Assembly (NCBI GenBank): GCA_964394625.1
Contig: CAYMYK010000005.1
Coordinates: 1 to 47,612, forward strand
Direction of reading: 5' to 3'
Source: an uncultured Pirellulales bacterium
GTDB taxonomy: Bacteria > Planctomycetota > Phycisphaerae > Sedimentisphaerales > Anaerobacaceae
DNA: 47,612 bases
Under the pieces are notes generated by a model. That model had not been told where the DNA came from. It did no database searches and saw only the letters and a program-made list of their open reading frames with translations. Positions 1,816 through 37,321 of this stretch are shown piece after piece. The number at the start of each line of letters is the position of its first letter. Position 1 is the stretch's first letter. The position numbers were made by a program, and so were the translations under genes.

Positions 1816-2845
1816 AACAACTCCTCCTCAAAAATTCATAAAAACAACGGATTAAATCCCTGCATTGCCCGCCGCTCATAACAGCCGCGAGGGCCCTTGA
1901 CCGCACCCTGAAAAACTTATCAGGACGTCAGTGGCGCGCCCGTCACAAACGGCGATGCACAAAAAAGGAAAATGGGCAAAAGAGACATATCAAGAGACCT
2001 GTGCTTGCCCGACACAGCCAGCTTTCAATACACTAATTCACCCTCCTTTCTGCCGGAGACCGGCAAATTAGCCAAGAACGCCTCGATTCTCCTCTAAGGG
2101 ACAGATATACCTATACTTGTTAATCCTGCCGTTCTAAGCAATCCGATTCACTAATATCCCAAACACTCTCTCCACACAAGTTCCTGTGAACAAAGGCATT
2201 ATAGCCATATTTGCCCTTGTTGCACAAATCACGACCCTGCGATTAGGCACAGGAGCGGTTTATGTATTTTAGATTACAGTATTCCCACAGCCCTGTCAAG
2301 GGCAAAATGCCAAAAATTTTAAGTGAAGTTGCCGGTTTCCAACTGAAAAACCGAAAATTTTGAGCAAAATCGGCAATCGGCAGTTTTGCAGAGGGCTGCG
2401 GGATTTGGCGGCGTGAAAAGGCAGGTGGGTGCGTTTCATTTTTGTAGGTAAAAGCCGAATACTCTGCAGAAACTCGAAAGCGGCTATCAGGGTGACAGGT
2501 TATCAGGCGGCGGGCATCAGATTATCAGGAGAGCAGGTTAGAGACGCCGTATTTGGCATTCGTCATTTTCCTGATGCCCTGTTCTGCCGATATCCTGCAT
2601 CCTGGTTGCCTGATGACCTGGTTTGCCTTTTTTTGATATTCGGATTGATACGCCGGATATAGGCCTTATGAGTTAAAAAATCTACCTACAAACGTGAAGT
2701 GTACCCAAGGCGGGTCCTATAAAATGTTTGAGCTTGAAAAGGGATGGGAGAAATGTTAAAAGAGCGGATGCGGAGTCCGCCTTCGGCGGATTTCACTTCT
2801 TAGCGCCGAGAATAACGGTTAAACCCGGATTCTGATTCGGAATGA

Positions 2846-5800
2846 GTGTTCAGGATGGACGCAAAGAGAAAAGCAGGCAGCAATAATGTTATGCAAGAGG
2901 AGAGTTCCGGCGGGCAGAGGTTTGTCCCGACCTGTCCGGTATGCGGTGAGAAGCACTGGCCTCACCATCCTCTGGTTCCGTGTGTCAATGCGAAGAAGGT
3001 AAAGGCAAAGGCCAGGGCGGAGGCGAAGCGAAAAGCAAAGGAACAGCGAGAGCGAAAGGCCGAGGCGAAGCGCAAGGCCAAAGAGCAGGTGAGGGCGGCC
3101 AGGGCGGCTCGGGCTGAGGAGAGGGCGAAAGAAAGGGCGGAGGAAAAGGCGAGGCAGCAGGCGTACGAAGATGCGATAGCACGTGCGAATGAGAGTGCTG
3201 ATGACGAGGCGAGGGCGCGGGCGGATGCGGAGCAGAGGGCCGAGTCGGCGGCAAAGACACGGGACGTTGCTGTCGAGAAGGCCAGGACTGATGCGCTGGC
3301 GAGAGAGCGGACTGAGAAGGAGCTGAAGGGCCGGCTTGCGGAAAAGAGCCGGGCATACGAACTGGCGATAGAGCAGTCGCAGCGCAAGCTCGCAGAGCAG
3401 CAAAAGGCGCGTGCGGAGCTGCAAGAGAAACTCTCGGCCGAGACAAGTGCGCGGGCCGGGCTTGAAGAGATGCTTGCCGCCGAGCAGGCGGCCAGAAGTG
3501 CCGCCGAGGAAAAGGCGCAGCGAGAGGGTCTCGAGAGGGCGCAGGCCGAGTCGAGCTTGAAGGAAAAGGTGCGGCTGTACGGTGAGTCGCTGGCGGAGAC
3601 GGAAGAGAAATTAAGGGTTGAAAGTCAGGCGAGGGTCCAGGCCGAGCAGAAGGTGGAGGATTACGGCGGGCAGTTGGCGCGGCTTCGGGAACAGTTCGAG
3701 GCGCAAGGCGAGACGACGGCGGCCCTGGAGCAGAGCATGCAGGCCCAGGAGCAGGCGCGGATGCGCGCCGAGCAGCGGGCACAGGCGGAGCTCGAAAGGC
3801 GTGCGCAGGCGCAGACGCGGGCGGAGATTGCCGAACGCAGGGCCGAAGTGGAGGCGCAAGAGCGGGCTCAAACGCTCGAAAAGGCGAAAGGCGAATTAGA
3901 ACAACGGGCGAGGGAGTATGGAGAACAGATAGCAAGGGCACAGGAGAGGGCGAGGACGCTTGGTGTGGAGATTGAGCAGGCCCGCAGCAATTTAGCGGCT
4001 GAGGAGCAGGCGAGGGCAGAGGCGGAGAGTAAGCTTCAAGAATACGCCGAGGAGCTTGAGAAGGCGAAAGAAAAGATCGAGTTTGAAAGTGCTGCGAGAG
4101 GAGCGATAGAGGAGCAATTAGGCGATGAGAGTCAGGCGAGGGAAGAGGCGGAGGCGGAGGCGAGGCGGCTGGGAGAGTCGCTGGCTGAATTGGAGAAGCG
4201 TATCGAGGCACAGGAGCGGGCGGCGGCGGAGTTGCGGGTGGAGATAAACGAGGAGATTGAGGCAAGGTTGAAGGCGGAGGACAGGACCGGTACCGAACAG
4301 CAGGAAAGGGTAAAGGCCCAGAGACAACTCGAGCAGCTCGGGGAGTCATTAGAACAATTGCAGGAGCTGAACGAGGAGCAGGCGAAGAGATTAACGCAGA
4401 CGGAGGAGAAGTTAGAGGCGCAGAGGCGGGAGCGGATTGACGCCGAGCAGAGGGCCGAGAGAGAGATTGAGAAACGGGCAAAGGCCGAGGCACTGGCACA
4501 GGCGGCTGAGAAGGGCCGGGCTGAAGCATTGGAGCAAGTAAGACGGGAAGTAGAGGCGTCAGAGCAGGCCGAGCAACGCGCCAAGGCAGAATTAGAGCGC
4601 AAGGCGATGGAATACGGTGAGCGAATAGCGGAGCAGCGGGAACGGCTGAGCAACGCAACGCAAAGCAAAGAGGATGCCGAGCAGCAGAGCGAAGAGCAAC
4701 GGCTGGCGAGAGAGCAGGCCGAGCAAAACGTACGGGAGAGTGGGGAAAGAATAGCGGAATTGGCAGAGCAGCTTGGGACGGAGGCGCAGAACAGACAGGA
4801 GCTTGAGCAGCGGCTGCAGAGTGAAACCGAAGCGAGGTTGGGAGTTGAGGAGAGGGTGGAGCGTTTAGGCCAGGAGCGGACGACGGCCCTGGCGAAGGCG
4901 GAGGCGGCTGAGCGGGCCAGGGCGGATGCACAGGCCAGGGCTGACGAGCAGGAGCGTCTGAGAGAGGCGTTCGAGCAGCGAATGCGGGCGGAGCTTGAGG
5001 AGAAAACGCGGAGCTACAGTGAGCAGGTTGCTACGGCTGAGGAAAAGGCAAGAGCGAGTAGCGAGGCGAGGACGGAGGCAGAGGAGCGGCTGCAAGCCGA
5101 GGTTGGATTAAGGGGGCAGGCAGAGGGTAAGGTCAGGGAGTATGGTGAAGAGCTTTCGCAGATTAGAAAGACGCTTGAGGACGAAATCGGGGCCCGCGGG
5201 CGGGCGGAGCAGGAATTAGAAGGCGCCCGAGCGGCTGAGAATGAGGCGCTGGGGCAGGCAAAGGGCTATGGAGAGAAGGCGGATGAATTAGGCAGGCAGC
5301 TGGAGCAGCAGAGTGCATTGTTGGCGAAGATGGGGCAGGAGCTTGCGGCAGAAAGGACAGCGAGGGGGCAGGCGGAAGAGGAGCTTCGAGAGGTGAGTCG
5401 GGAGAAGGCGGCGGCGGTAGCGGCCGGGCAAGTGCAGGAGCGGGTGCGGGCAGATGCGGAGCAGAGGGCTAAGCTGGCGACGGAAGAGAAGGCGGTATTG
5501 CAGCAGCACTTAGGCGAGGCGCTGCAGGCGAAGAATATGGCGGGGCAGCAGGCACGTCAGGAGACGGAGGCGAGACAGAAGTCACAGGACAAGGCCCAGC
5601 GTGAGGCGCAGAGGCGGGCGGAGGCGGAGGCGATAAGAGATGCGGCTGAGAAGGCACGGGCTGAGGCGGAGACTAAGGCGACGGCTGAGGCACAGGAGCG
5701 GGCGCGAATTGAGAAGCAGACGAGTGCGGAATTAGAGCAGAAGGCCCGGCATTACGGCGAGCAAATAGCGGCTGCGCAGGAGAAGGTAAGGTCGTACGAG

Positions 5801-8800
5801 AGGGAGCTTGCGCAGTTGACCGAGCGGCTTGGTGCGGAGAAGAAGAGACGGGCTGAGGCGCAAGAAAAGCTGCAGGCGCAGACAGAGGCGAACCGGCAGG
5901 CGCAGGAGCGGGCGAAAAAGCAGGCGGAAGAGCTTGCGAGGGTACACAAGGAGACAGAGGCGCTGGTGCAGGGTAAAAGTGAGCTGGAAGATAAGCTGGA
6001 CGCCCAGAGTGAGGTGCGTGCGAGGACGGAGCGGACGGCGAAGCAAGCGGGCGAGAGGATTGCGGCCCTTGAGCTCCGGCTCAGGCAGGCGACGGATTCG
6101 CGTGCGGAACGGATTGCGAAAGTCGAGGCCAAGCAAAGGGCGAAGGCACAGGCGCAGGCGAACGAAGAGGTCAGGCGGGAGGCGGCCGAACAGGCCGAGG
6201 CGGCAGCAAAGTTGACCGAGCAGTTGCAGCAGCGAATTGCGGAAGCGACCGATGCGCGGCGGCGAGCGGAGGAGAATGTGGTGACGGCGGCGGAAGAAAG
6301 AGCGAAGGCACAAGCGGTTTTGCAAGCGGAGACAAAGGCGAGGATAGAAACGGAGCAGCGGCTTAGAACAGAGGCACAGGCGAGAGAGCAGACGGAGGAG
6401 AAGGCCAGGGCCGAGCTCGAGCAAAAGGCCGAGCAGTTCGGACGGCAGATTGCGACGGCGCAGCAGAGCGCTCGGTCGCTTGCCGAGCAATTGCGTGGTG
6501 CACAGGAGCAGTTGGAGATTGAGGGGCGGCTGCGGAGCGAATCGGATGAGAAGGCGGAACAATATGCCGAGACTCTTGAGCGGATTCGGGGCCAATTGGA
6601 GGCGCAGAGACAGGCAGGGGCTGAGCTTGAGGAGAAGCTGAGTGGGGCGATTGACGACAGAGAGGGACTTGCGGCGGAGTTAGCAAAGCAGGGCGAGCAG
6701 GCGGCCCAGATGAAGCAAAGGAGTGAGGCGGCAATACAGGGCAGGATTGAGGCGCAGGAGCGATTGAAATCGGAGACGGAGGCACGGCTCAGGGCGGAGC
6801 AGAAGGTGCAATTGGAGGCAGAGCAGAGGGTGAAGGCACAGGCGCAGGCCGAGACCGAGGCGAGGGCAAGGGCGCAGGCAGAGCAAAGGGCAAATGAGCA
6901 GGCCCGTTTGAGAGAGGCAGTGCAGCAGCAGGTAAAGGCGGAATTGGAGGAGAAGGCGAGACACTACGGCGAGCAAATAGCCAGGGCTGAGGAGCGGGCG
7001 GCGTCACTTGCCAAGACGCTGAGCAAGGCACAGCAGGAGACGGCGGAGGCGACACAGGCAAAAGCTCAAGTGGAAGAGCAGCTTGGCGGTTACGCCGGCA
7101 GGGTGGAGGATGTTGAGAAGAGGTTAGAGATAGCGGAACAGGCCCGGGCAAATGCGGAAGAAAAGCTCCGGGCGGAGATTGAAACCGCGGCAAATACTGA
7201 AATGCAGGTGCAGAGTGAGGCCCAGCAAAGGGCTAAGGCAGAGTCGCGGGCGGAGCTTGAGGCGAAGGGACGAGTCGAGTCGGAGGAAAGGGCGAAAGCC
7301 GCGGCAAGGGCGCAGGCGCAAGCGGAGCGTGAGGCGAAGGCGGAGCTGGAGGAAAAATCGAAGGCGTTTGAGCAGGCGAGCCGAGAGCTTGCCGAGACGC
7401 TGAGAGGTGAGATGGAGGCACGGATAAAGGCGGAGGAACAGGGCAAGTTGCTGGCTGAGCGATTTGCAGAGATTGAGGCGCAGATGGCGGATGAGGCCAA
7501 GGCAAGGGCTGAGGCGCAACAAGAGTCAAGGCGGTTGGCCGAGGCGCTGGCAGAGTTAAAGAGCAAAGTCGATGCGGCGGCGGAGCGAAGAGTGGAGGCA
7601 GAACAGCGGGCTGAGGAGGAAAAGCAGGCGAGGGTTGGTCTTCAAGAGAAGGAGCAACAGCGGGCCGAGGAAAAGACAAAAGCGGAGGCGCTTGCGGAGG
7701 CGGAGCGAGAGGCGAGGACGGCGGCGGAGGCGGTTGCCGCACGCCAGGTGCGAGCTCGAGAAAATATGGAGCGTGAGATGCGAGTGGAATTGGAAGAGAA
7801 GGCGCGGGCCTACGGCGAGGAGGTTGCAACGGCACGGGCCGGAGCGCGTGCCCTGGAAGAGTCGCTGAGTGAGTTGAAAAGCGAGCTTGCCGCTGAAAGG
7901 CGTGAGCGGGCGGAGATGGAGCAGCGGGCGCAGGAGCAGGCGGCGGCTTTGGTTGAGGCGCAGAGGCAGGCAGAGGAGCAGGCGGGGGCAATTGCCGAGA
8001 GAAAAGAGCAGTTAGAGTACCAGATTGAGGTAAGCAAGAAGGTACAGGCGAATGCTCAGGCATACGCGGAGCGGTTGGCTGAGGTTGAGGAGAAATTAGA
8101 GTGGCTTGAGAAGGCCAGGGCCGAGGCGGAGGAGAAAGAGAGGGCGCAGGCCGAGGAGGTTGCGGCGGCTCAGGAGAAGGCGCGTGGTCTGGCAGAGGTG
8201 CTGGGTGAGACGAAAAAGGAGCTTTCTACTGAGAGGCAGGTACGGGCGGAATTAGAAGAGAAGGCAAATGGGCAGGCGGCGGCTTTGGCTGAGGCGCAGA
8301 GGCAGGCAGAGGAGCAGGCGGGGGCAATTGCCGAGAGAAAAGAGCAGTTAGAGTACCAGATTGAGGTAAGCAAGAAGGTACAGGCGAATGCTCAGGCATA
8401 CGCGGAGCGGTTAGCTGAGGTTGAGGAGAAATTGGAGCGGCTTGAGAAGGCCAGGGCCGAGGCGGAGGAGAAAGAAAGGACGCAGGCCGAGGAGAGAGTG
8501 CAGGCGGAGGAGCAGTTGAACAGTGTCAATGAGAAGGCAGGAGAACTTGAGCGGCAGTTAAGGACTGAGCATAAGGCAAGAGAACAGGCGCAGAACAGTG
8601 CGAAGGCATACGCAGAGAAGATGACCGAGCTGGAAAAGGAGCTGGCGGTGCAGGCGGAGTCGGCAGCGCAGATGAAGAGCAGGATTGAGGCGGAGACGGA
8701 GGCGAGGATACAGGCGGAGGAGAACGCACGGATTAATGCCGAGGCGATGTTGGAAATTAGGGAAAGCATCAAAGAGCAAAGGGCCGGCGGAGCGGAAGTG

Positions 8801-9094
8801 CAAGAGAGGATTGGCGAGGCGGAGCAGGGCGAGCTGACATCAGGTCAGCAGGTTCATCAAAGAGAGCGGACTGCCGTTGGGATTAAGGCAGAGGCAGATG
8901 AGGCGGCAGTAACGGGACAGGCCGACAAGGGGTATGCGCCGATAGAGATTCGTGAGACGGGGGCGAGCCCCCACGGGGCGAGCAATGGTACGTGCGACTG
9001 CTGCGGTCGGGATGATATTGCTCTGACGGATTTGGTGAGAATAGACTCTGGTCATTTGTTCTGTCCGGATTGCCTTGCGGCGCTGGGGAGGTAA
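2846..9094 (+). CDS. Giant 2082-aa A/E/Q/R/K-rich helical protein (coiled coil or ER/K single alpha helix). It has an N-terminal Cys/His cluster and a C-terminal CxxC-x19-CxxC zinc ribbon. No signal peptide or transmembrane segment. Function unknown.
   Basis: A 6249-nt uninterrupted frame with GC3-rich codon usage like its neighbours. The start is GTG 2846 or ATG 2855. The N-terminus reads CPVCGEKHWPHHPLVPC. About 1900 residues follow with heptad-like AE(Q/K)RA composition and almost no aromatics or Pro. The C-terminus reads CDCCGRDDIALTDLVRIDSGHLFCPDC. Confidence 0.8.
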   Translation: MFRMDAKRKAGSNNVMQEESSGGQRFVPTCPVCGEKHWPHHPLVPCVNAKKVKAKARAEAKRKAKEQRERKAEAKRKAKEQVRAARAARAEERAKERAEEKARQQAYEDAIARANESADDEARARADAEQRAESAAKTRDVAVEKARTDALARERTEKELKGRLAEKSRAYELAIEQSQRKLAEQQKARAELQEKLSAETSARAGLEEMLAAEQAARSAAEEKAQREGLERAQAESSLKEKVRLYGESLAETEEKLRVESQARVQAEQKVEDYGGQLARLREQFEAQGETTAALEQSMQAQEQARMRAEQRAQAELERRAQAQTRAEIAERRAEVEAQERAQTLEKAKGELEQRAREYGEQIARAQERARTLGVEIEQARSNLAAEEQARAEAESKLQEYAEELEKAKEKIEFESAARGAIEEQLGDESQAREEAEAEARRLGESLAELEKRIEAQERAAAELRVEINEEIEARLKAEDRTGTEQQERVKAQRQLEQLGESLEQLQELNEEQAKRLTQTEEKLEAQRRERIDAEQRAEREIEKRAKAEALAQAAEKGRAEALEQVRREVEASEQAEQRAKAELERKAMEYGERIAEQRERLSNATQSKEDAEQQSEEQRLAREQAEQNVRESGERIAELAEQLGTEAQNRQELEQRLQSETEARLGVEERVERLGQERTTALAKAEAAERARADAQARADEQERLREAFEQRMRAELEEKTRSYSEQVATAEEKARASSEARTEAEERLQAEVGLRGQAEGKVREYGEELSQIRKTLEDEIGARGRAEQELEGARAAENEALGQAKGYGEKADELGRQLEQQSALLAKMGQELAAERTARGQAEEELREVSREKAAAVAAGQVQERVRADAEQRAKLATEEKAVLQQHLGEALQAKNMAGQQARQETEARQKSQDKAQREAQRRAEAEAIRDAAEKARAEAETKATAEAQERARIEKQTSAELEQKARHYGEQIAAAQEKVRSYERELAQLTERLGAEKKRRAEAQEKLQAQTEANRQAQERAKKQAEELARVHKETEALVQGKSELEDKLDAQSEVRARTERTAKQAGERIAALELRLRQATDSRAERIAKVEAKQRAKAQAQANEEVRREAAEQAEAAAKLTEQLQQRIAEATDARRRAEENVVTAAEERAKAQAVLQAETKARIETEQRLRTEAQAREQTEEKARAELEQKAEQFGRQIATAQQSARSLAEQLRGAQEQLEIEGRLRSESDEKAEQYAETLERIRGQLEAQRQAGAELEEKLSGAIDDREGLAAELAKQGEQAAQMKQRSEAAIQGRIEAQERLKSETEARLRAEQKVQLEAEQRVKAQAQAETEARARAQAEQRANEQARLREAVQQQVKAELEEKARHYGEQIARAEERAASLAKTLSKAQQETAEATQAKAQVEEQLGGYAGRVEDVEKRLEIAEQARANAEEKLRAEIETAANTEMQVQSEAQQRAKAESRAELEAKGRVESEERAKAAARAQAQAEREAKAELEEKSKAFEQASRELAETLRGEMEARIKAEEQGKLLAERFAEIEAQMADEAKARAEAQQESRRLAEALAELKSKVDAAAERRVEAEQRAEEEKQARVGLQEKEQQRAEEKTKAEALAEAEREARTAAEAVAARQVRARENMEREMRVELEEKARAYGEEVATARAGARALEESLSELKSELAAERRERAEMEQRAQEQAAALVEAQRQAEEQAGAIAERKEQLEYQIEVSKKVQANAQAYAERLAEVEEKLEWLEKARAEAEEKERAQAEEVAAAQEKARGLAEVLGETKKELSTERQVRAELEEKANGQAAALAEAQRQAEEQAGAIAERKEQLEYQIEVSKKVQANAQAYAERLAEVEEKLERLEKARAEAEEKERTQAEERVQAEEQLNSVNEKAGELERQLRTEHKAREQAQNSAKAYAEKMTELEKELAVQAESAAQMKSRIEAETEARIQAEENARINAEAMLEIRESIKEQRAGGAEVQERIGEAEQGELTSGQQVHQRERTAVGIKAEADEAAVTGQADKGYAPIEIRETGASPHGASNGTCDCCGRDDIALTDLVRIDSGHLFCPDCLAALGR

Positions 9095-12422: not shown

Positions 12423-12562
12423 CTATTTTCTATTGACTATTGCCTATTGGCTGTTTGGGATTGCAGGCGGGGATTGATTATTGGTTATCGATAGGTTAGT
12501 ATTGGGTGATTGAAATTAGCCCGGCGGCGGTCGGGAGCTTTTTTGTGTGGAGGTGTTTGGAA

Positions 12563-13687
12563 ATGAAGCTGGGTCGTGAGTTAATGTTGGCGGCAGCTTT
12601 GCTGGTGATGGTAAAGGGCGTGGCCTGTTTCGCAGAGGACAAACGGATAGAGACATTGTCGAGCGGGGCGAGCGCACCGGATTTTAATCTGCCGGGTGTT
12701 GACGGGAAGATGCACCGGCTCGGCGATTATGCGGATGCGAAGGTGCTGGTTGTGATATTTACGTGTAATCACTGCCCTGCCGCACAGGCGTACGAAGGGC
12801 GGATAACGAAGTTAGTGGCCGATTACAGGGGTAAGGGTGTAGCGGTAGTTGCAATATCGCCCAACGACCCGCTGGCGATTCGGTTGGATGAGTTGGGTTA
12901 TACTGATTTGAGCGATTCGCTTGCGGAGATGAAGATACGGGCGGCGGAAAAGGGATTTAATTTTCCGTATCTTTACGACGGGCGGACGCAGAAGGTATCG
13001 ATGGCATACGGGCCTGTGACGACGCCGCACGTGTTTGTCTTCGACAAAGAACGGAAACTGCGTTACGAGGGCGGAATTGATAATTCGCAGGACCCGAGGT
13101 TAGTGAAGAGGCATTTTTTACGGAATGCTATAGATGCGCTTTTGGCCGGGCGCCAGGCAGCGGTGAAGCAGACGAAAACGTTCGGGTGCTCAATTAAGTG
13201 GTCGAGCAAACGCGAATGGGTCGCCAAGGCGTTCGAAGAGTGGGCGGCCGAGCCGGTTGTTTTGAATGAGATTGATGCGTCAGGCCTGAAGAATATTTTG
13301 AGCAACGATACGAAGAAGCTTCGATTAGTGAACCTCTGGGCGAGCTGGTGCGGGCCCTGCGTGATAGAATTTCCGGAATTAGTGAGGACGAACCGGATGT
13401 ACCGGGGGCGGGATTTCGAGATGGTGACTGTCAGCACCGATATGGTAAGTATGGCTGAGCGGGCGCTCGGTTTTTTGAAGGAGCGGGAGGCATCGATGCA
13501 AAACTGTATCTTTGCCGGGAGCAGGCAGGGATTCATAGAGGCGTTTGATGTGCAGTGGCGCGGGGCCATTCCTTATACGTTAGTGATTAAGCCGGGCGGT
13601 GAGATTATCTACCGGCACGAGGGGATGGTTAACCCGCTGGAGCTCAGGCGTGTGATTGTGGGGCAATTGGGGCGGTACTTTTTCTGA
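12563..13687 (+). CDS. Secreted tandem thioredoxin-fold thiol:disulfide oxidoreductase with two TlpA/redoxin-like domains
   Basis: ATG 12563 is preceded by SD GGAGGTG, and the N-terminus is a signal peptide. Domain 1 carries FTCNHCP. Domain 2 carries the classical WASWCGPC motif. The track start at 12506 is upstream of the SD. Confidence 0.7.
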   Translation: MKLGRELMLAAALLVMVKGVACFAEDKRIETLSSGASAPDFNLPGVDGKMHRLGDYADAKVLVVIFTCNHCPAAQAYEGRITKLVADYRGKGVAVVAISPNDPLAIRLDELGYTDLSDSLAEMKIRAAEKGFNFPYLYDGRTQKVSMAYGPVTTPHVFVFDKERKLRYEGGIDNSQDPRLVKRHFLRNAIDALLAGRQAAVKQTKTFGCSIKWSSKREWVAKAFEEWAAEPVVLNEIDASGLKNILSNDTKKLRLVNLWASWCGPCVIEFPELVRTNRMYRGRDFEMVTVSTDMVSMAERALGFLKEREASMQNCIFAGSRQGFIEAFDVQWRGAIPYTLVIKPGGEIIYRHEGMVNPLELRRVIVGQLGRYFF

Positions 13688-13881: not shown

Positions 13882-16488
13882 ATGTCAGGTAAATCAGCAG
13901 GTGTCGTTGCGTTGATGGTTATATCGGCGGTAGTTTTCGGTGCGACGTATCCGGGTCAGATGGGCGTTAACATTGGTGGTATCGGTGAAGGGGGGGGTAT
14001 ATTTGTCGATATGGCGAAAGAGCACCACCGGTACAGCCGGCTGCCGAGCGGGACGATGGCGTATGACAGTGAGGGTTGGCCTTCGTGTGATGCGCAGCTT
14101 GTTATGGATTTTCGCTTAGTGGCGGAATGGGTTGGAGAGATTGACGACCCGGAAGAGTACCGGTATGACAACACGGGGACGTATAAGTGTTCGTTTGTCG
14201 GGCAGGCGACGTTGAGCAGCACGGGAGCGAGTATTGCGAACAAGAGCTATAATTCAGGGACGAACACGACGACGTTCGATCTTATCATTACGCAGAAGCG
14301 AACGTACTGCCATCTGGGCTTTACGAACACCAAACGGACGGCTGTAAGCAGTACGGATACCGGATTTACGGATTTGAAAATGATCAAGCCGGGGTATGCG
14401 GGTGATACGATGCAGACCTTTACCGATGATTTCATAAACACGCTGACGAGCGCAAGTTTCGGCGTGGTTCGGTATATGAACGTGACGGCGACGAACGGTC
14501 ACGAGGCAACTTATCCTGCGACACTGTCGTGGTCGGACCGCAAGCTTGTGACTGATGCGGCGCAGGTTCCGATCGATGCCATAGGCAAGCCACAGGGGGC
14601 GGCATGGGAGTATGTGATACAGATAGCGAACATGACGGAAATGGACCCATGGATCAACGTGCCGGTCTCAGCGACAACGGATTATGTGACGCAATTAGCG
14701 ACGATGTTCAGAGACAATCTCGACCCGAACCTGCACGTTTACGTTGAGAACAGCAACGAGGTGTGGAACGGTATTTTCTATCAGCAGATTTGGAGTGCGT
14801 CTCAGGCCGGCGCATTGGGGATAGATGAACATGAGAACTACGCACGGCGGACGGTAGAGCTTGCGCAGATATTTGAGAGTGTGTACGGCACGGGTTCTCT
14901 GAACAATCGGGTGCGGGTTATGCTTTGCTGTCACGCCCCGATGCTGAAGTGGTGGGTCGAGACCTATATGATTCCGTACATTAACAGCAACTTCCCTGGC
15001 ACGGCATCTGACTACATATATGCAATAGCGAGACAGACATATTTCGGTGCAGGTGACCCGAGTCCGGACACAAGGACGATTGACCAGCTGCTTGACGCCT
15101 GCATGACGGACATAAACGGGCAGATGAGCGAGACGGGAGGGGGCGAAGCGGGCCGGCTTCAGTGGGTGCAGAAGGCGGCGACGTGGGGACTTGTCGGTGG
15201 AGCGTGCTCTTATGAGGGAGGGTATCACTCCCCGGCGAACGGTGTGCTGGAGAATCTGGACAACAAGATTATGATGCATCGTGTGCCGCGAGGCGGCGAA
15301 GTTCTTAAGTACAATTACGATGATGCGTTCTTTGCGCTTGGAGCCAATATAGCGATACAGTTTACGCTACAGAGCTCTGCCACTCGCTACGGGTTCTGGG
15401 GCCTCACCGACGACTTGGCCAATCCGGATCGTAACTACAAGTTTCAGGCGATGCGTGATGTTTTAGGGGATGAAGCGTTGCTGGCGGACTTTGATAACAG
15501 TGGCATTGTAGATATTATGGACTTCAACGTGATGGCGACCGACTGGATGCTGCAGGATGGTTTCACGGGCTCGCAAGACCCGGGCTACGTTGGTCTTGTT
15601 GCCTTCTGGCCGCTGGACGACTCTTCAGGTGATGTGGCAGTCGATGACTCCGGGAACGCAAGAGACGGGATGTTGGGTTCGGCGGTCGGCGCCGATGCGA
15701 ATGACCCGACGTGGTTTAACGATGTCGAGCGCGGGTGGTGTCTGTATTTTGACGGCGGCGACTACATTCAGTGCGGCGGGGGCAAGAACGCAGGGGCCGA
15801 CCCGTGCGACCCGGGGACATGGACGGACCCGTGTACGTGGGCTGATTTTGCAAATTCGTCATTTACGACATCGGTCTGGATAAACCAGAACGACAGCCCG
15901 GACTGGGGCGTGTTCGTCGGCAAGGGTGAGATTCAGTATAAGCTTCAGTTCCTGCTTGGTCTTGACCTCTTGCACTTTGCGCTTCCGCGGACGCCGGGCG
16001 GCGGATTAGGAGGCAGCACTACGATATTGAACAACCAGTGGTACCACATCGCCGGGCTCTGGGACGAGGATAATGAATCGGCGTACCTTTACCTTGACGG
16101 TGTATTAGACAACTGGATGGATTACGGCACGGCGCATCCGGAGGGCGCCGGGGTGTTTATCGACAATGACTGCAACGTGTTGATTGGTGCGACGGTGAGC
16201 GAGGGTTATCTTGAGGACCCGAACCGGCATAAAATAGGCGGCTGCCCGCTTCGTGGTGACGCGGCGGGATACGCCGAGCGATTCTTTAAGGGCTACCTGA
16301 GTGAAGTCAGGATGTATGAGCGGGCGCTGAACGAACTGGAGATAAAGTATTTAGCCGGTATCCCATCAACATACGTTCCGTTGGATTCCGTTGCGAACAT
16401 ATATGATGAGGAGCCGCAGGGCTTGAAGGCGGTGAATTTCAAAGACTATGCGATACTGGCGGACGAATGGATGGTGGCAGGCCCTTAG
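13882..16488 (+). CDS. Secreted glycoside-hydrolase-like protein. The N-terminus is a TIM-barrel-like catalytic region of uncertain family. The C-terminus carries a dockerin-like Ca-binding repeat, a LamG jellyroll domain and a second dockerin-like half-repeat.
   Basis: Strong SD AAGGAGGAG and an N-terminal signal anchor. YVENSNEVWNG resembles the clan GH-A NEP acid/base region. DFDNSGIVDIMDFNVMATDWM is dockerin-like. CLYFDGGDYIQCGGG...WYHIAGLWDE...YLYLDG is LamG. The C-terminal tail reads LKAVNFKDYAILADEW. Confidence 0.55.
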   Translation: MSGKSAGVVALMVISAVVFGATYPGQMGVNIGGIGEGGGIFVDMAKEHHRYSRLPSGTMAYDSEGWPSCDAQLVMDFRLVAEWVGEIDDPEEYRYDNTGTYKCSFVGQATLSSTGASIANKSYNSGTNTTTFDLIITQKRTYCHLGFTNTKRTAVSSTDTGFTDLKMIKPGYAGDTMQTFTDDFINTLTSASFGVVRYMNVTATNGHEATYPATLSWSDRKLVTDAAQVPIDAIGKPQGAAWEYVIQIANMTEMDPWINVPVSATTDYVTQLATMFRDNLDPNLHVYVENSNEVWNGIFYQQIWSASQAGALGIDEHENYARRTVELAQIFESVYGTGSLNNRVRVMLCCHAPMLKWWVETYMIPYINSNFPGTASDYIYAIARQTYFGAGDPSPDTRTIDQLLDACMTDINGQMSETGGGEAGRLQWVQKAATWGLVGGACSYEGGYHSPANGVLENLDNKIMMHRVPRGGEVLKYNYDDAFFALGANIAIQFTLQSSATRYGFWGLTDDLANPDRNYKFQAMRDVLGDEALLADFDNSGIVDIMDFNVMATDWMLQDGFTGSQDPGYVGLVAFWPLDDSSGDVAVDDSGNARDGMLGSAVGADANDPTWFNDVERGWCLYFDGGDYIQCGGGKNAGADPCDPGTWTDPCTWADFANSSFTTSVWINQNDSPDWGVFVGKGEIQYKLQFLLGLDLLHFALPRTPGGGLGGSTTILNNQWYHIAGLWDEDNESAYLYLDGVLDNWMDYGTAHPEGAGVFIDNDCNVLIGATVSEGYLEDPNRHKIGGCPLRGDAAGYAERFFKGYLSEVRMYERALNELEIKYLAGIPSTYVPLDSVANIYDEEPQGLKAVNFKDYAILADEWMVAGP

Positions 16489-16525
16489 TGTCAAGCAGAA
16501 AAACAAGTTGATGAGGAGAAATATA

Positions 16526-19153
16526 ATGTTCAGCAAAAGTGTGCGGGGTGAAGTTATTGTTTTTTTGACAGTGCTGGCGTTGTTTAGTTGTGCGGTGAGC
16601 CCCTTGCCGGCGAGCGGGCAGACAGTGACGATTGACGAGGGCACGAGGTACCAGACGATAGAGGGCTGGGGGACGTGCACCGGCGGGAGCTTAAGCTACG
16701 ATGCGGATTGGCGGTATGCTTACAAGTATCTCGGGTGTAATCTGCTTCGGTTTCCGATGGGCAAGGAGGTGCTGATAGCACCGGACGGCAATTATGCGAC
16801 GGCTGTGGAATTAGTGGATGATATTAACAGCAACGTCGGTGCGATGGATTTTAACACGCAGGCGGTCGGTGGTGATACGGCGTTGTGGCTTATGGACAAT
16901 GCCCTTGAGCCGGAGCGGGTGAAGATTGTTGGTTCGGTGTGGTCGCCTCCGCACTGGATGAAAGGGCCGACGGGAGCGGAGCAGTATCATGTGACGAACC
17001 CTTCGGTTTTGAAGCCGACACCGTGGCTGAGCGAGGGGACGTGGGGCGACAGTATCGGGGGTCGGCTGCTTCAGGACGCGGGCAATTTAGAGCAGTTCGG
17101 GCGCTACATTGCGGCCTGGGCGAAGGGTTTCGAGAACCACTACGGGATGCCGGTATATGCGGTGAGCTTACAGAATGAGCTTAGTTTTGAAAATCCGTTC
17201 GACAGCTGCACTTACCTGCACGGGTATGGCGAACCTGATCCGATCGGGGGGCAATACTGGCAGTATGCAGGGGCGCTTAAGGCGGTGAAGGATGAGTTTG
17301 CGCAGATGGAGACAGAGCACGGGGCGGGCTTTATGGCTACGCAGATTATGGGGCCTCACATGGCGAGCATAAACACGAGCCCGAGCAGCCCGTGGGCGTT
17401 GAATGACCAGATGCAGTTTATCCAGGCGGTGAAGGACCATGCGGATGCGGGTTTGACAGACTTTTTGCATATTTATACGAATAACTATAGTGCGCCGGCG
17501 TATTCGAGGGCGAAGATGTGGCGGGCGTACTGGGAGGGTAAGGATTCGATGCCCGGTGAGCCGTGGGCCGGCTGGCTTTATGCTTCGGGTATAAGCAGCG
17601 ACGGGAAAAAATCGTGGAATTCGGAGGCGGGTGGACACGGTACGAACTGGAACGGCTGTCTTGACCTGGCGCAGGACTTACATGACCAGTTGGTGTGGGG
17701 CAATGTGAGCGCATATATTTACTGGCAGTTTGCCAACAGCGGTGTTGAGACGAGTCAGCACGATCTGGTTGCGGCGCCGGATCTGGCCAGGCCGACGAAG
17801 AGCAAGAAGTACTGTGCGGCGAAACACTTCTTCAGGGCAATTCGGCCCGGGGCCGAGCGTGTGTCGGCGACTTTCGCCGGCGGCAACAGCTCATACGGGT
17901 ACGGCAGTGACCCGATGCGGACGGATTTGAGCTTGAACGTTAGCGCTTACGTGCACGACGAAGACGAGACGGTTACGATTGTCCTGGTGAACATGCGGGC
18001 GAACAATTATTCGGTGACAATCAATGTGCCGCCGCTTTTCGGGATTACGGTGTACAGCGTTCACCGCTCGAGCGCAAGCGAGAACTTCAAGCAGTTGAGT
18101 GATTTGGCCGTATCGGGCGGTCAGGTATCGGTGACGGTGCCCGGTGAGAGCGTTATGACGCTTCACGGGCCGCCTTTGATTGACTTAGAGGCGGATTTCA
18201 ATCACGATGATGTCGTCGATATTAACGACCTGAACACAATGGCGGCGGACTGGATGATGACGGATAGGTTCGAGGGGGCGAAGGACCCGGGGACGGAGAA
18301 CCTTGTGGTGTGCTGGGATATGAACGACCCGAACGACGGGACGACAGTATCGGATTCGAGCGGCAACGAGCATACGGGGGTGTTCGGGAGCGGCAGTTAT
18401 GACCCGAGCTGGTACAACGACGGTCAGCGGGGTTGGTGTCTGTACTTTGACGGAACCGATTACGTGGATTGCGGCGGAGGTAAGGATGCGGGGCAGCCGT
18501 ACACATGGGCGGACTTCAACGAGTCGTCATTCACGTTGGCCGGCTGGGTAAAACAGGAGGCGACACTTGGCTGGGCGAACTTCGTATCGAAGGGTGAGAT
18601 TCACTGGAAGCTGCAGATGCTCTTAGGGTTGAACTATTCGCACTTTGCGTTCCCGAGGGCACCAGGAGCAGGTGTTGGAGGAACGAAGCTGTTCACGAAT
18701 AACAAGTGGTACCATGTAGCAGGTGTCTGGGACGACGAGCAGGAAGTGGCACGTCTCTACCGGGACGGATTTTTAGACGGAGTGCTCTATTGGGGTGATG
18801 CGCATCCCGATAGGTCGGGGATATTTGTGGACAATGACTGCAACGTACTGCTCGGTGCGACAGTAAGTGAAGACTACGAAGAGCTGCCGGAGCGGCACAA
18901 GATAGGCGGCTGTCCGATACGTGACGGGGCGAACTATGCGGAGCTGTTCTTCAGGGGTTGGCTGAGCGATGTGCGGCTGTACGATCGCGCGCTGATAAAG
19001 GACGAGATAAAGTATTTAGCGGGCGGCGAGGCAGTGTACTATGAGTTAGAGTCGCCGGCGAACGTATGGGATGAGGAGCCAGCCGGCTTGAAGGCGGTGA
19101 ATTTCAAAGACTATGCGATACTGGCGAACGAGTGGAGGAGGGCGCTTAATTAG
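16526..19153 (+). CDS. Secreted GH30-like glycoside hydrolase carrying the same C-terminal dockerin-like/LamG/dockerin-like module
   Basis: ATG 16526 with SD GAGGAG 7 nt upstream, then a signal peptide MFSKSVRGEVIVFLTVLALFSCAVSPLPASGQ. The N-terminal motif TIDEGTRYQTIEGWGT resembles the GH30 Q-x-I-(D/E)-G-(F/W)-G start. The C-terminal module is paralogous to 13882-16488. The track start at 16448 lies inside the upstream gene. Confidence 0.6.
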   Translation: MFSKSVRGEVIVFLTVLALFSCAVSPLPASGQTVTIDEGTRYQTIEGWGTCTGGSLSYDADWRYAYKYLGCNLLRFPMGKEVLIAPDGNYATAVELVDDINSNVGAMDFNTQAVGGDTALWLMDNALEPERVKIVGSVWSPPHWMKGPTGAEQYHVTNPSVLKPTPWLSEGTWGDSIGGRLLQDAGNLEQFGRYIAAWAKGFENHYGMPVYAVSLQNELSFENPFDSCTYLHGYGEPDPIGGQYWQYAGALKAVKDEFAQMETEHGAGFMATQIMGPHMASINTSPSSPWALNDQMQFIQAVKDHADAGLTDFLHIYTNNYSAPAYSRAKMWRAYWEGKDSMPGEPWAGWLYASGISSDGKKSWNSEAGGHGTNWNGCLDLAQDLHDQLVWGNVSAYIYWQFANSGVETSQHDLVAAPDLARPTKSKKYCAAKHFFRAIRPGAERVSATFAGGNSSYGYGSDPMRTDLSLNVSAYVHDEDETVTIVLVNMRANNYSVTINVPPLFGITVYSVHRSSASENFKQLSDLAVSGGQVSVTVPGESVMTLHGPPLIDLEADFNHDDVVDINDLNTMAADWMMTDRFEGAKDPGTENLVVCWDMNDPNDGTTVSDSSGNEHTGVFGSGSYDPSWYNDGQRGWCLYFDGTDYVDCGGGKDAGQPYTWADFNESSFTLAGWVKQEATLGWANFVSKGEIHWKLQMLLGLNYSHFAFPRAPGAGVGGTKLFTNNKWYHVAGVWDDEQEVARLYRDGFLDGVLYWGDAHPDRSGIFVDNDCNVLLGATVSEDYEELPERHKIGGCPIRDGANYAELFFRGWLSDVRLYDRALIKDEIKYLAGGEAVYYELESPANVWDEEPAGLKAVNFKDYAILANEWRRALN

Positions 19154-37044: not shown

Positions 37045-37114
37045 TTCATCCCGGCTTCTTCGCCTTGAGATTCCGCATTTTCGAATTTTGCATTTTCAAC
37101 TTTGAATTTCCTAT

Positions 37115-37186
37115 CTACCCGGCCAGGACTCGAACCTGGAATGTAGGCACCAAAAGCCCATGTGTTACCAATTACACCACCGGGTA
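37115..37186 (-). tRNA. tRNA-Gln (anticodon UUG)
   Basis: The reverse complement folds as a 72-nt cloverleaf. The acceptor stem is TACCCGG/CCGGGTA. The D-arm is GTGT-AATTGGTA-ACAC. The anticodon arm is TGGGC-TTTTGGT-GCCTA, giving UUG. The T-arm is CCAGG-TTCGAGT-CCTGG. CCA is not encoded. Confidence 0.8.
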
Positions 37187-37321
37187 ATCCAATTGATAAT
37201 TGATTATTCAATATTGATTAACAGCACCCGGCTGCTGAGATAAAAACAACCAATCATCATTCATCAATAATCAATTCTCATAGCTGTCACGCAAGGCCGT
37301 TCAGAATCGGCCCGAAGAACC

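What the first reader, a model, noticed from the sequence alone, without database searches (positions are those of the whole stretch)
2846..9094. 2082-aa helical giant capped at both ends by Cys clusters
A single 6.2-kb frame encodes an almost aromatic-free, Pro-free A/E/Q/R/K polymer. The sequence reads AKARAEAKRKAKEQRERKAEAKRKAKEQ... and continues for ~1900 residues. That composition fits either a two-stranded coiled coil or an ER/K single alpha helix, a rod roughly 250-300 nm long.

The termini carry the only Cys-rich motifs. The N-terminal one is CPVCGEKHWPHHPLVPC. The C-terminal one, CDCCGRDDIALTDLVRIDSGHLFCPDC, is a textbook CxxC-x19-CxxC zinc ribbon.

There is no signal peptide, transmembrane segment, ATPase head or enzymatic domain. 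It is therefore not an SMC/Rad50, an M-protein-like surface fibre or a tape-measure protein. Metal-binding knuckles at both ends of a giant spacer suggest a molecular ruler or tether, or a filament that closes or polymerises end-to-end through zinc. I cannot match it to a described family. It is the best candidate for something undescribed here.
Basis: partly seen in the sequence, partly recalled or inferred. Interest (0 to 1): 0.8.

Follow-up and report, generated by a model that had tools for sequence, protein, structure and literature searches.

The report
Giant zinc-capped coiled-coil tether protein
A real, conserved but undescribed family of very long rod-shaped proteins in Phycisphaerae-type planctomycetes keeps two tiny metal-binding end domains almost unchanged while the rod between them varies about four-fold in length, which fits a cytoplasmic tether between two cell structures; its function is untested.

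Summary
ORF 2846-9094 (+) encodes 2082 aa, 69% A/E/Q/R/K, with every Cys and Pro in the last ~50 residues at either end. It has no match in Pfam, NCBIfam, PHROGs, PADLOC or PDB.

It is a real gene family. About 62 species genomes and at least 25 metagenome contigs, nearly all labelled Planctomycetota (Phycisphaerae/Sedimentisphaerales), carry an ortholog. All share:
- an almost invariant N-terminal knuckle, KFVPTCxICGEKHWPxHxxxPCxN;
- a polybasic helix after it;
- an acidic, heptad-periodic rod of 637-2860 aa;
- a fixed-size C-terminal CxxC-x19-CxxC finger.

Rod dN/dS is 0.15-0.29. The rod evolves much faster than neighbouring genes, through module gain and loss. No neighbouring gene is conserved.

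AlphaFold2 gives one unbroken helix for residues 49-329. It models the C-terminal finger confidently as a treble-clef type, not a classic zinc ribbon. The same finger also caps other coiled-coil proteins ("RWWW"-domain and CHAD proteins).

Best reading (about 0.45): a two-headed cytoplasmic tether or spacer, similar in architecture to EEA1 or golgins but not homologous to them. A strict ruler, an ER/K single helix, SMC, TolA, an M protein and a tape measure are not supported. What it binds is unknown.

The parts
2846..9094 (+). Whole gene: 2082 codons plus stop. The likelier start is the ATG at 2855.
   Evidence: Searches give the ORF. Intact orthologous ORFs occur in 34 genomes with both ends present. 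Body dN/dS is 0.15-0.29.
2846..2917 (+). Variable N-terminal leader, aa 1-24.
   Evidence: It is not conserved among orthologs. AlphaFold2 pLDDT is below 50.
2918..2989 (+). N-terminal metal knuckle, aa 25-48: RFVPTCPVCGEKHWPHHPLVPCVN. C30, C33, H37, W38, P39, H41 and C46 are invariant; H40 varies.
   Evidence: The motif is near-invariant in 62 genome loci. It is also present in 25 of 26 long complete ORFs retrieved through the C-terminal pattern alone. It has no Pfam or PDB match. AlphaFold2 confidence here is low.
2990..3160 (+). Polybasic start of the helix, aa 49-105 (AKKVKAKARAEAKRKAKEQRERKAEAKRKAKEQ...). The first 100 aa have net charge +14.
   Evidence: One search gives the charge. The 55 aa after the knuckle carry +5 to +14 in 34 of 34 orthologs, while the body is always net negative. 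There is a weak compositional hit to TolA domain II, far below cut-off.
2990..8815 (+). Acidic alpha-helical rod, aa 49-1990. It has heptad periodicity, no Pro or Cys, and is tiled by degenerate ~110-aa modules, each with two ~42-aa sub-repeats carrying 'Y[GA]E.[IL]A..E..L'. Fully extended it would be about 288 nm.
   Evidence: a/d-position hydrophobic occupancy gives z=13-17 against shuffles, and i/i+4 salt pairs are twice the shuffled level. Modules are shown. AlphaFold2 gives a single helix 49-329 with pLDDT above 90 for residues 80-230. The length is arithmetic.
5072..5335 (+). Gly-rich stretch inside the rod, aa 743-830: three adjacent 25-aa windows each with 4 Gly. Possible hinge.
   Evidence: The hinge role is inference only.
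7886..8581 (+). Recent tandem duplication of a ~112-aa module: aa 1681-1800 versus 1793-1912, 73% aa and 80% nt identity.
8816..8938 (+). Low-confidence linker between rod and C-terminal domain, aa 1991-2031, Gly-rich.
8939..9091 (+). C-terminal domain, aa 2032-2082: a 'PIEIR' strand plus a single-zinc finger, C2050-x2-C2053-x19-C2073-x2-C2076, with an invariant IDSG turn. The protein ends 6 residues after the last Cys.

Best explanation
The gene encodes a cytoplasmic, two-headed coiled-coil tether or spacer.

**The rod.** The long acidic helix most likely pairs with a second chain to form an extended rod (pairing is inferred). In this organism the rod would reach about 290 nm if it is continuous. 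In relatives it would span about 75-400 nm.

**The ends.** Each end holds a different small binding module.
- The N-terminal end has an invariant Cys2-His(2)-Cys metal knuckle followed directly by a strongly basic helix. This most plausibly docks on a polyanionic surface such as nucleic acid/nucleoid, polyphosphate or acidic membrane (inferred).
- The C-terminal end has a fixed-size single-zinc treble-clef finger. The same lineage also places this finger at the C-terminus of other coiled-coil proteins. It therefore most plausibly docks on one common partner or site (inferred).

**Shown here.** The architecture, its conservation, the charge polarity, the heptad periodicity, the absence of membrane, secretion or enzymatic features, and the pattern of invariant ends with a plastic rod.

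**Not shown.** Metal identity, oligomeric state, binding partners and cellular role.
For: 1. **Real, constrained gene.** Intact orthologs occur in about 62 genomes. Rod dN/dS is 0.15-0.29 in 7 ortholog pairs.
2. **Both ends co-occur and are almost invariant.** All 34 complete orthologs found through the N-terminal pattern carry the C-terminal finger. Conversely, 25 of 26 long complete ORFs found through the C-terminal pattern carry the N-terminal knuckle.
3. **The rod is plastic.**
   - Lengths run from 637 to 2860 aa.
   - L012 lacks about 1150 internal residues relative to L005 but is 70% identical over the remainder.
   - The window's own protein contains a recent module duplication.
   - Window versus L001: the rod is 52% identical, while neighbouring genes are 74-95% identical and the ends are near-identical.
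   - From general knowledge, invariant ends with a variable rod is the pattern of tethers and adaptors. Intermediate-filament-like proteins show the opposite pattern, and SMC proteins keep coil length.
4. **Extended helix.** The heptad register is significant (z=13-17). AlphaFold2 gives one helix over 49-329 with no fold-back.
5. **Conserved polarity.** The segment after the knuckle is +5 to +14 and the body is net negative in 34 of 34 orthologs.
6. **The C-terminal finger is a reusable end-cap.** It also occurs on 'RWWW'-domain proteins, CHAD proteins and other coiled coils, at or near the C-terminus in all of them and with fixed spacing.
7. **Cytoplasmic.** There is no transmembrane segment or signal peptide, and it has Cys4-type sites.
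8. **A precedent for the architecture.** EEA1 has an N-terminal zinc finger, a ~200 nm coiled coil and a C-terminal zinc-binding FYVE domain (PMC8491906).
Against: - No partner, localisation or phenotype is known, and no neighbouring gene is conserved to hint at a pathway.
- The N-terminal knuckle could not be modelled with confidence, so its ligand set and fold are guesses.
- Core hydrophobicity is modest: about 39% of a/d positions are strictly hydrophobic. A dimeric coiled coil is therefore not proven.
- Some length variation could come from collapsed repeats in metagenome assemblies.
- One tandem paralogue has lost the N-terminal Cys residues (L026).
Confidence: 0.45

Rival explanations
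1. It is a cytoskeletal or scaffold filament. Rods would join end to end (N-terminal knuckle to C-terminal finger, possibly sharing metal ions) or laterally, like bacterial coiled-coil-rich proteins such as crescentin, FilP or Scy. The filaments might contribute to cell shape or to FtsZ-independent division in this lineage.
For: - It is a long heptad coiled coil without enzymatic domains.
- Each end has its own conserved metal-binding module, so the two ends could in principle pair.
- The basic N-terminal segment and the acidic body could support staggered lateral packing.
- Planctomycetes lack FtsZ, Phycisphaerales nevertheless divide by binary fission, and the mechanism is unknown (PMC5147048).
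Against: - Rod length differs more than four-fold and changes by over 1000 aa between related species. Filament formers usually keep rod length and vary their ends (general knowledge).
- The same C-terminal finger caps short proteins that lack the knuckle. The finger's partner is therefore unlikely to be the knuckle alone.
- There is no Pfam Filament or other intermediate-filament-like hit.
- There is no link to division or shape genes in any of about 60 neighbourhoods.
Confidence: 0.2
2. It is a monomeric single alpha helix (ER/K-type) acting as a stiff or spring-like spacer between the two end domains, not a paired coiled coil.
For: - E-to-K/R and K/R-to-E pairs at i/i+4 are twice the shuffled expectation (164 and 160 versus about 82).
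- Strictly hydrophobic residues fill only about 39% of a/d positions.
- AlphaFold2 models a monomer as one straight helix with pLDDT above 90.
Against: - The charged fraction is 0.41, and only 0.1% of 28-aa windows reach 0.65. Described ER/K helices are far more charged (general knowledge).
- The heptad hydrophobic register is highly significant (z=13-17).
- Ala (20%), Leu and Gln dominate the composition, which is typical of Ala/Leu-core coiled coils.
- An AlphaFold2 monomer model cannot distinguish the two states.
Confidence: 0.12
3. It is a nucleoid-associated or regulatory DNA/RNA-binding protein. The zinc modules and basic helix would bind nucleic acid, and the rod would be mainly a dimerisation or bridging device, for example for chromosome organisation.
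For: - A CCHC-like knuckle with an invariant Trp followed by a +10 basic helix resembles nucleic-acid-binding knuckles (resemblance from memory only).
- Related rods in the same lineage are fused to ParA-like ATPases (P0001-P0003).
- Treble-clef fingers include DNA binders such as GATA.
Against: - No DNA-binding family is matched.
- A strongly acidic rod of about 290 nm (net charge -81) is unusual for a nucleoid protein.
- This reading overlaps with the tether model, being the special case in which one cargo is the nucleoid. It is not truly exclusive.
Confidence: 0.13
4. It is not a functional protein: a chance or 'shadow' ORF in purine-rich repetitive DNA, or an assembly artefact.
For: - Composition is extremely biased: GC skew is +0.3 to +0.4 and AT skew +0.4 to +0.5 across the gene.
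- Long antisense ORFs exist, for example 2985..4931 (-) at 648 aa.
- The protein itself is absent from the large protein collections.
Against: - 2082 stop-free codons are very unlikely by chance.
- Orthologous intact ORFs occur in dozens of independent assemblies with invariant ends.
- dN/dS is 0.15-0.29.
- An 88%-identical copy exists in a separate metagenome (L067).
Confidence: 0.01

Closest known systems
EEA1 and golgin-type long coiled-coil tethers (eukaryotic)
   Different: There is no sequence homology. The C-terminal domain here has one Zn site (4 Cys, about 30 aa), not the two-zinc FYVE with its PI3P-binding motifs. The N-terminal motif is C-x2-C-x3-H-x3-H-x4-C, not a C2H2 finger. No Rab GTPase or PI3P system is known in these bacteria. 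This is an analogy of design, not family membership.
Bacterial coiled-coil-rich cytoskeletal proteins (crescentin, FilP, Scy, Ccrp)
   Same: They are long cytoplasmic heptad or near-heptad coiled coils without enzymatic domains, restricted to particular lineages, with internally repeated rods.
   Different: None has zinc modules at both ends (my knowledge; no such paper was found). There is no Pfam Filament match. Here the ends are invariant and the rod length is highly variable.
SMC / Rad50 / MukB
   Same: They have very long coiled coils. Rad50 uses a CxxC zinc hook. There is a weak coil-level hit to TIGR02168 (20 bits against a 567-bit cut-off).
   Different: There are no ATPase head halves at the termini. 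There is no Cys anywhere in the rod, so no hook or hinge. AlphaFold2 shows no fold-back over residues 49-329.
TolA domain II and Lys/Ala/Glu-rich stalks
   Same: The composition of the first ~60 rod residues is similar (NF007065 hit, E=4e-4, 19.5 bits).
   Different: The score is far below the 213-bit cut-off. There is no N-terminal membrane anchor and no TolA C-terminal domain.
RING / TRIM / BRE1-type coiled-coil E3 ligases
   Same: These combine a coiled coil with a terminal Cys-rich treble-clef domain. RING fingers are the top Foldseek and phmmer matches of the C-terminal finger, though none is significant (E 0.08-1).
   Different: Only four ligands are present, equivalent to RING zinc site 1. 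The positions of RING site 2 are Ser and a variable residue, and the protein ends before ligands 7 and 8. No ubiquitin-like system is implied.
Lineage-specific relatives sharing parts of this protein
   Same: ParA-ATPase / 1000-aa coil / TM / cadherin-repeat proteins (P0001-P0003) and a Ser/Thr-kinase / coil / TM / Sel1 protein (P0004) share the rod repeat with its 'Y[AG]E.[IL]' motif. 'RWWW'-domain and CHAD-domain proteins share the C-terminal finger.
   Different: None of these carries the N-terminal knuckle. They are other combinations of the same building blocks, and all are themselves uncharacterised.

Membership tests
SMC/Rad50/MukB | Walker A and Walker B/signature ATPase half-domains at the N- and C-termini | tested here: not met
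   There is no ATPase family in Pfam or NCBIfam. The only hit is a coil-level match to TIGR02168, 20.4 bits against a 567-bit cut-off.
SMC/Rad50/MukB | Central hinge or CxxC zinc hook where the coil folds back | tested here: not met
   There is no Cys between residues 47 and 2049. AlphaFold2 gives an unbroken helix 49-329. The rest of the rod was not modelled.
EEA1-type FYVE tether | C-terminal FYVE domain (two Zn sites, 8 Cys, basic PI3P-binding motif) | tested here: not met
EEA1-type FYVE tether | Long parallel dimeric coiled coil separating two binding ends | tested here: inconclusive
   The heptad register is significant and the modelled helix is continuous. Oligomeric state and chain orientation cannot be tested with these tools.
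ER/K single alpha helix | Very high charge density in alternating E and K/R blocks with almost no hydrophobic seam | tested here: not met
   The charged fraction is 0.41, and 0.1% of 28-aa windows reach 0.65. The heptad hydrophobic signal gives z=13-17. The i/i+4 salt pairs are nevertheless twice the shuffled level.
Intermediate-filament-like proteins (crescentin/FilP) | Rod domain of conserved length and segment layout, with variable head and tail | tested here: not met
   The rod is 637-2860 aa and the ends are invariant. There is no Filament family hit.
Intermediate-filament-like proteins (crescentin/FilP) | Self-assembly into filaments without cofactors | not testable with these tools
   This needs purified protein and electron microscopy.
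TolA | N-terminal transmembrane anchor and C-terminal TolA domain III | tested here: not met
   Maximum hydropathy is 0.92. The only hit is a sub-threshold, domain-II-like compositional match.
M-protein-like surface fibre | Signal peptide and a cell-wall or membrane anchor | tested here: not met
   No segment at either end is hydrophobic enough. The termini are Cys/His metal sites instead.
Phage tape-measure protein | Phage tail gene context and tape-measure families | tested here: not met
   PHROGs gives only a 17-bit hit to an unknown family over the finger. There is no relative in 2.9 million viral contigs. The neighbours are housekeeping genes.
RING finger | Cross-brace with eight Cys/His ligands binding two Zn | tested here: not met
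   Four ligands only are present. The positions of RING ligands 3 and 4 are Ser and a variable residue, and the chain ends 6 residues after the last Cys.
Classical zinc ribbon | Two beta-hairpin zinc knuckles forming a three-stranded sheet | tested here: inconclusive
   The CxxC-x19-CxxC spacing fits. However, the AlphaFold2 model (pLDDT above 90) puts the second CxxC at a helix N-terminus, and the top matches are treble-clef domains, all non-significant.
New family defined here (knuckle-rod-finger giants of Phycisphaerae) | N-terminal KFVPTC.ICG..HWP.H...PC.N knuckle, then a basic helix, an acidic heptad rod, and a C-terminal C..C-x13-IDSG-x3-C..C finger at the chain end | tested here: met
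   All four features are present in the window protein. All four are also present in 34 complete genome orthologs. Both end modules were seen in 25 complete metagenome ORFs.

The most novel reading that the evidence does not exclude
This is a bacterial counterpart of eukaryotic long coiled-coil tethers. A 75-400 nm rod would use one zinc module to hold a polyanionic structure (nucleoid, polyphosphate granule or inner membrane invagination) and the other to dock on a lineage-specific hub. That hub would be shared with the 'RWWW'-domain and CHAD-domain proteins. The system would organise the large, compartment-like cytoplasm or the FtsZ-independent division of Phycisphaerae. It would form a new cytoplasmic positioning system built from the knuckle, the rod repeat and the IDSG finger.
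Probability: 0.15. Interest if true: 0.85.

Novelty: new variant of a known kind. Interest (0 to 1): 0.62.

Why it matters
Planctomycetes lack FtsZ, and how they divide and organise their unusually complex cell interior is an open question (PMC5147048). This family is a concrete, lineage-wide candidate structural component.

- It is single-copy in nearly all of the genomes found.
- It is under purifying selection.
- Its two end modules are as conserved as enzyme active sites.
- Its rod can span a large part of a cell.

The family also reveals a small toolkit that this lineage recombines in several proteins: the metal knuckle, the 'Y[AG]E' rod repeat and the fixed-size IDSG zinc finger. None of these is in Pfam or NCBIfam.

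If the tether reading holds, long coiled-coil tethers with specific end domains would not be unique to eukaryotic membrane traffic. If it does not hold, the family is still a well-defined unknown whose ends are short enough for direct binding assays.

Tried and rejected
**Searches that found little or nothing**
- The full-length word-indexed protein search returned only four proteins of other architectures and no self hit. Low-complexity words probably swamped the candidate list.
- The same tool with the C-terminal 61 aa found no candidates. With the N-terminal 51 aa it found only six short fragments.
- An exact look-up of a neighbouring protein showed that the source genome is not in that collection.
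- Pfam, NCBIfam, PHROGs, PADLOC and PDB sequence searches, on the whole protein, on the termini and with a profile, gave nothing above noise.
- Rfam and tRNA scans found nothing in or near the gene.
- The promoter/terminator scan was uninformative.
- Literature searches found no description of this family.

**Structure searches**
- The AFDB library was unavailable.
- AlphaFold2 could not model the N-terminal knuckle with confidence.

**Synteny**
- Synteny analysis found no neighbour conserved across clades. Neighbours include IlvD, an NtrC-type two-component system, a large secreted glycoside-hydrolase-like protein and Rex, each clade-specific (IlvD, NtrC-type, glycoside-hydrolase-like and Rex assignments are my reading of the representative sequences, not Pfam results).

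**Ideas considered and rejected**
- Spectrin-like three-helix bundles, suggested by the ~110-aa module. AlphaFold2 shows no fold-back and the module reads as continuous heptads.
- A c-type haem CxxCH site. The His does not follow the second Cys, and the protein is cytoplasmic.
- A DksA/TraR finger. There is no Pfam hit.
- Phage origin.
- My guess that the 'RWWW' domain is an integrase-arm/AP2-like DNA binder. Pfam gave no support, so it remains only a lead.

Full report
**1.

The + strand ORF 2846..9094 is open for 2082 codons. Composition is A 20.5%, E 20.5%, R 11.5%, Q 10.2%, L 7.1% and K 6.6%. Aromatic residues make up 1.6%. All 8 Pro and all 8 Cys lie at residues 28-46 or 2032-2076.

Possible starts are GTG 2846, ATG 2855 and ATG 2891. 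Independently called N-terminal fragments from other samples begin 'MD...' about 25-35 residues before the motif, which favours ATG 2855.

No hydrophobic segment exists; the maximum Kyte-Doolittle 19-residue mean is 0.92. Pfam, NCBIfam, PHROGs, PADLOC and PDB sequence searches return nothing above noise for the whole protein or for either end. The gene sits among ordinary chromosomal genes:
- downstream are a DHODB-type Fe-S/NAD-binding protein, a GltD-like oxidoreductase, an M90 peptidase and a redoxin;
- further along are transketolase, PRPP synthetase, a nucleotidyltransferase/hexapeptide-repeat protein (GlmU-like by my reading) and an M17 aminopeptidase.

**2. It is a real, conserved family**

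A pattern scan of one genome per species returned 63 loci. All but one are labelled as Planctomycetota: Phycisphaerae, Sedimentisphaerales, Phycisphaerales, or 'uncultured Pirellulales' third-party bins. The exception is labelled Aegiribacteria.

Sixty-two loci carry an ORF with the N-terminal motif. All 34 ORFs that are complete within their contig end with the same C-terminal domain.

That scan used the peptide CGEKHWPH, so N-terminal conservation was partly ascertained. I therefore repeated the retrieval from the other end. A metagenome scan with only the C-terminal pattern [RK]IDSG[QH][LMR][FL]C found 196 relatives. Among the 80 kept, 25 of the 26 complete ORFs longer than 900 aa carry the N-terminal knuckle.

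This second set shows which positions are truly fixed. In window numbering they are K/R25?-F26-V27-P28-T29, C30, C33, G34, H37, W38, P39, H41, P45, C46 and N48. H40 varies (H/F/S/A).

At the C-terminus, C2050, C2053, C2073, C2076 and the I-D-S-G turn are fixed. C2052 and H2070 vary. The finger has identical spacing in 92 of 93 representative sequences. In all representatives with a finger it lies at or near the chain end.

Rod dN/dS is 0.15-0.29 in seven ortholog pairs. An 88%-identical copy of the gene's 3' part is present in an unrelated metagenome (L067). The artefact hypothesis is therefore excluded.

**3. Anatomy of the rod**

Hydrophobic residues occupy heptad a/d positions far more than in shuffled sequences. 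With Ala half-weighted, z is 16.9; for strictly L/I/V/M/F/Y/W it is 13.3. Forty per cent of 28-residue windows have at least half their a/d positions hydrophobic, against 10% in shuffles.

Only 41% of residues are charged, and almost no window reaches the charge density of ER/K single helices. However, i/i+4 opposite-charge pairs are twice the shuffled expectation. There is also a very strong period-2 Ala/charged alternation that I cannot explain structurally.

The rod is tiled by degenerate modules of about 110 aa. Each module contains two ~42-aa sub-repeats with the motif Y-[GA]-E-x-[IL]-A-x-x-E-x-x-L, and the motif reads as continuous heptads. One module was duplicated recently: aa 1681-1800 versus 1793-1912, 73% aa and 80% nt identity.

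AlphaFold2 on residues 1-330 gives a single uninterrupted helix from 49 to 329, with pLDDT above 90 for residues 80-230 and no fold-back. This argues against spectrin-like bundles, at least for that stretch. Extrapolated to residues 49-1990, the rod would be about 288 nm. A Gly-rich stretch at 743-830 may be a hinge.

The first 100 residues carry net charge +14 and the body carries -81. This polarity is conserved in all 34 complete orthologs.

**4. The ends**

*The C-terminal domain.* It was modelled with an alignment of 66 sequences. The final 35-40 residues (about 2042-2081) have pLDDT above 90. They form a short strand just before the first CxxC knuckle, a hairpin carrying IDSG, and a terminal helix that begins at the second CxxC. 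The 'IEIR' residues just upstream are at lower confidence (pLDDT about 50-70).

*The N-terminal knuckle.* The motif is C-x2-C-x3-H-x3-H-x4-C with an invariant Trp. It could not be modelled (pLDDT 44-59) and matches no family.

*The finger occurs in other proteins.* A full HMMER scan of 1.84 billion representatives found 101 clusters. Together with the metagenome loci, these show the finger on:
- short proteins (about 190-350 aa) with an uncharacterised N-terminal 'LPG..Y....RWWW.V.LPGE.K...R.LKP' domain and a short coil;
- CHAD-domain proteins;
- other coiled coils.

Pfam has no model for the RWWW domain.

*The rod repeat also recurs.* It appears between a ParA-like ATPase and a membrane anchor with cadherin-like repeats (P0001-P0003), and between a Ser/Thr kinase and a membrane anchor with Sel1 repeats (P0004). 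The lineage thus recombines three unannotated building blocks.

**5. How the gene evolves, and its context**

Complete orthologs range from 637 to 2860 aa. L012 (880 aa) equals L005 (1999 aa) minus about 1150 internal residues, with 70% identity over the rest.

Between the window and its closest relative L001, flanking proteins are 74-95% identical. The giant is only 52% identical, although its ends are almost the same.

The gene is present once in each assembly found. There are two exceptions: a truncated second copy in one assembly (L061) and a tandem paralogue in another whose N-terminal Cys residues are lost (L026).

No neighbouring gene is conserved across clades. No relative exists in viral contigs. 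Some short forms could be assembly collapses of repeats; I could not test this.

**6. Interpretation**

The pattern is invariant, asymmetric ends with a fast-changing rod that always stays helical. That is what one expects of a tether or spacer whose specificity lies in its ends.

From general knowledge, intermediate-filament-like proteins show the opposite pattern, with a conserved rod and variable ends, and SMC-type proteins conserve coil length. A strict 'ruler' of one length is not supported, although species-specific tuning is possible.

The conserved basic helix next to the knuckle suggests a polyanionic target. The reuse of the finger on other proteins suggests a common docking site. 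Neither target is identified.

My estimates are:

| Reading | Confidence |
|---|---|
| Two-headed cytoplasmic tether | about 0.45 |
| Filament or scaffold former | about 0.2 |
| Monomeric single-helix spacer | about 0.12 |
| Mainly nucleic-acid-binding organiser (overlaps the tether model) | about 0.13 |

**7. Comparison with known systems and novelty**

The closest design is EEA1, which has an N-terminal zinc finger, a ~200 nm coiled coil and a C-terminal zinc-binding FYVE domain (PMC8491906). Every family-defining feature of EEA1/FYVE that I could test is absent. The same holds for SMC/Rad50, TolA, M proteins, tape measures, RING ligases and ER/K helices (see the membership table).

Literature searches found no description of this family. 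I rate it a new variant of a known kind: a long coiled-coil structural or tether protein, forming a new and well-delimited family with two unannotated end domains.

It is of real interest because the lineage lacks FtsZ and its cell organisation is poorly understood (PMC5147048). However, no evidence yet ties this protein to any process.

Noticed in passing
window 1882-2845: About 960 bp upstream of the giant gene hold no ORF of at least 80 aa. GC is lower here (0.48 against about 0.6 inside the gene). The region has several short direct and inverted repeats. A small GC-rich hairpin (TCCGCC-TTCG-GCGGA, about 2775-2792) is followed by a T-rich run roughly 55-60 nt before the start codon. It could be a long leader or regulatory region, or an unannotated small gene or RNA.
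   Followed up: partly
metagenome loci L072, L102, L116, L119, L131, L136, L120, L140, L142; proteins P0052, P0093: This is a second uncharacterised family: short proteins (about 190-350 aa) with a conserved N-terminal 'LPG..Y....RWWW.V.LPGE.K...R.LKP.G...AT.D...AE..A..MW' domain, a short coil with the same 'YAEEIA' motif, and the same C-terminal IDSG zinc finger. Pfam has no match for the N-terminal domain. Its resemblance to integrase arm/AP2-like DNA-binding domains is only my recollection.
   Followed up: partly
P0093 / locus L064 6001-7506; P0066: CHAD-domain proteins (Pfam PF05235, E=1e-50) carry the same C-terminal IDSG finger. P0093 also has the RWWW segment. One such gene is on a contig of assembly GCA_016932895.1.
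   Followed up: partly
proteins P0001-P0003 (Sedimentisphaerales) and P0004: Giant membrane proteins reuse the same Ala/Glu/Lys rod repeat as a ~1000-aa cytoplasmic stalk. One type runs ParA/MinD-like ATPase, coil, TM helix, then tandem cadherin-like repeats. The other runs Ser/Thr kinase, coil, TM, then Sel1 repeats.
   Followed up: partly
locus L026, ORF ending near 8118 (723 aa), immediately upstream of the 1598-aa family member: This is a tandem paralogue with an intact C-terminal finger. Its N-terminal motif has degenerated and lost its Cys residues (PTSNTRGEKHWPPRFLAPY).
   Followed up: no
locus L061 9920-10942: A 340-aa ORF has the N-terminal knuckle and basic helix fused to an unrelated tail. 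It lies about 500 bp upstream of a gene that begins like Cas9 (MSSYTLGLDIGSNSIGWALL). The same assembly also has a normal family member (L042).
   Followed up: no
window 2846-9094, protein residues 51-1990: There is a very strong period-2 signal: Ala alternates with charged residues, with spectral power 115-160 against about 6 in shuffles. It is much stronger than the heptad signal and has no obvious structural explanation for an alpha-helix.
   Followed up: partly
window 13882-16488 and 16448-19153 (+); 20226-22994 (-): Two tandem paralogous ~870-900-aa proteins with Laminin_G_3 domains overlap by 41 nt. Their cross-matches to the other copy's L001 ortholog are about 56-57% identical over ~330 aa. 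They lie near a GH78 alpha-L-rhamnosidase and an aldo/keto reductase, and look like a polysaccharide-degradation cluster.
   Followed up: no
window 12506-13687 (+): A redoxin/AhpC-thioredoxin fusion gene is present here but absent from the otherwise syntenic locus L001. This is a small insertion or deletion difference between close relatives.
   Followed up: no
window 37479-38690 and 38784-40010 (-); tRNA-Gln at 37114-37187 (-): Two tandem DUF2961 genes lie next to a tRNA-Gln(TTG).
   Followed up: no
window 2985-4931 (-) and other antisense ORFs inside the gene: Long antisense ORFs, up to 648 aa, overlap the giant gene. I treated them as shadow ORFs produced by the extreme purine bias of the coding strand and did not analyse them further.
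   Followed up: no
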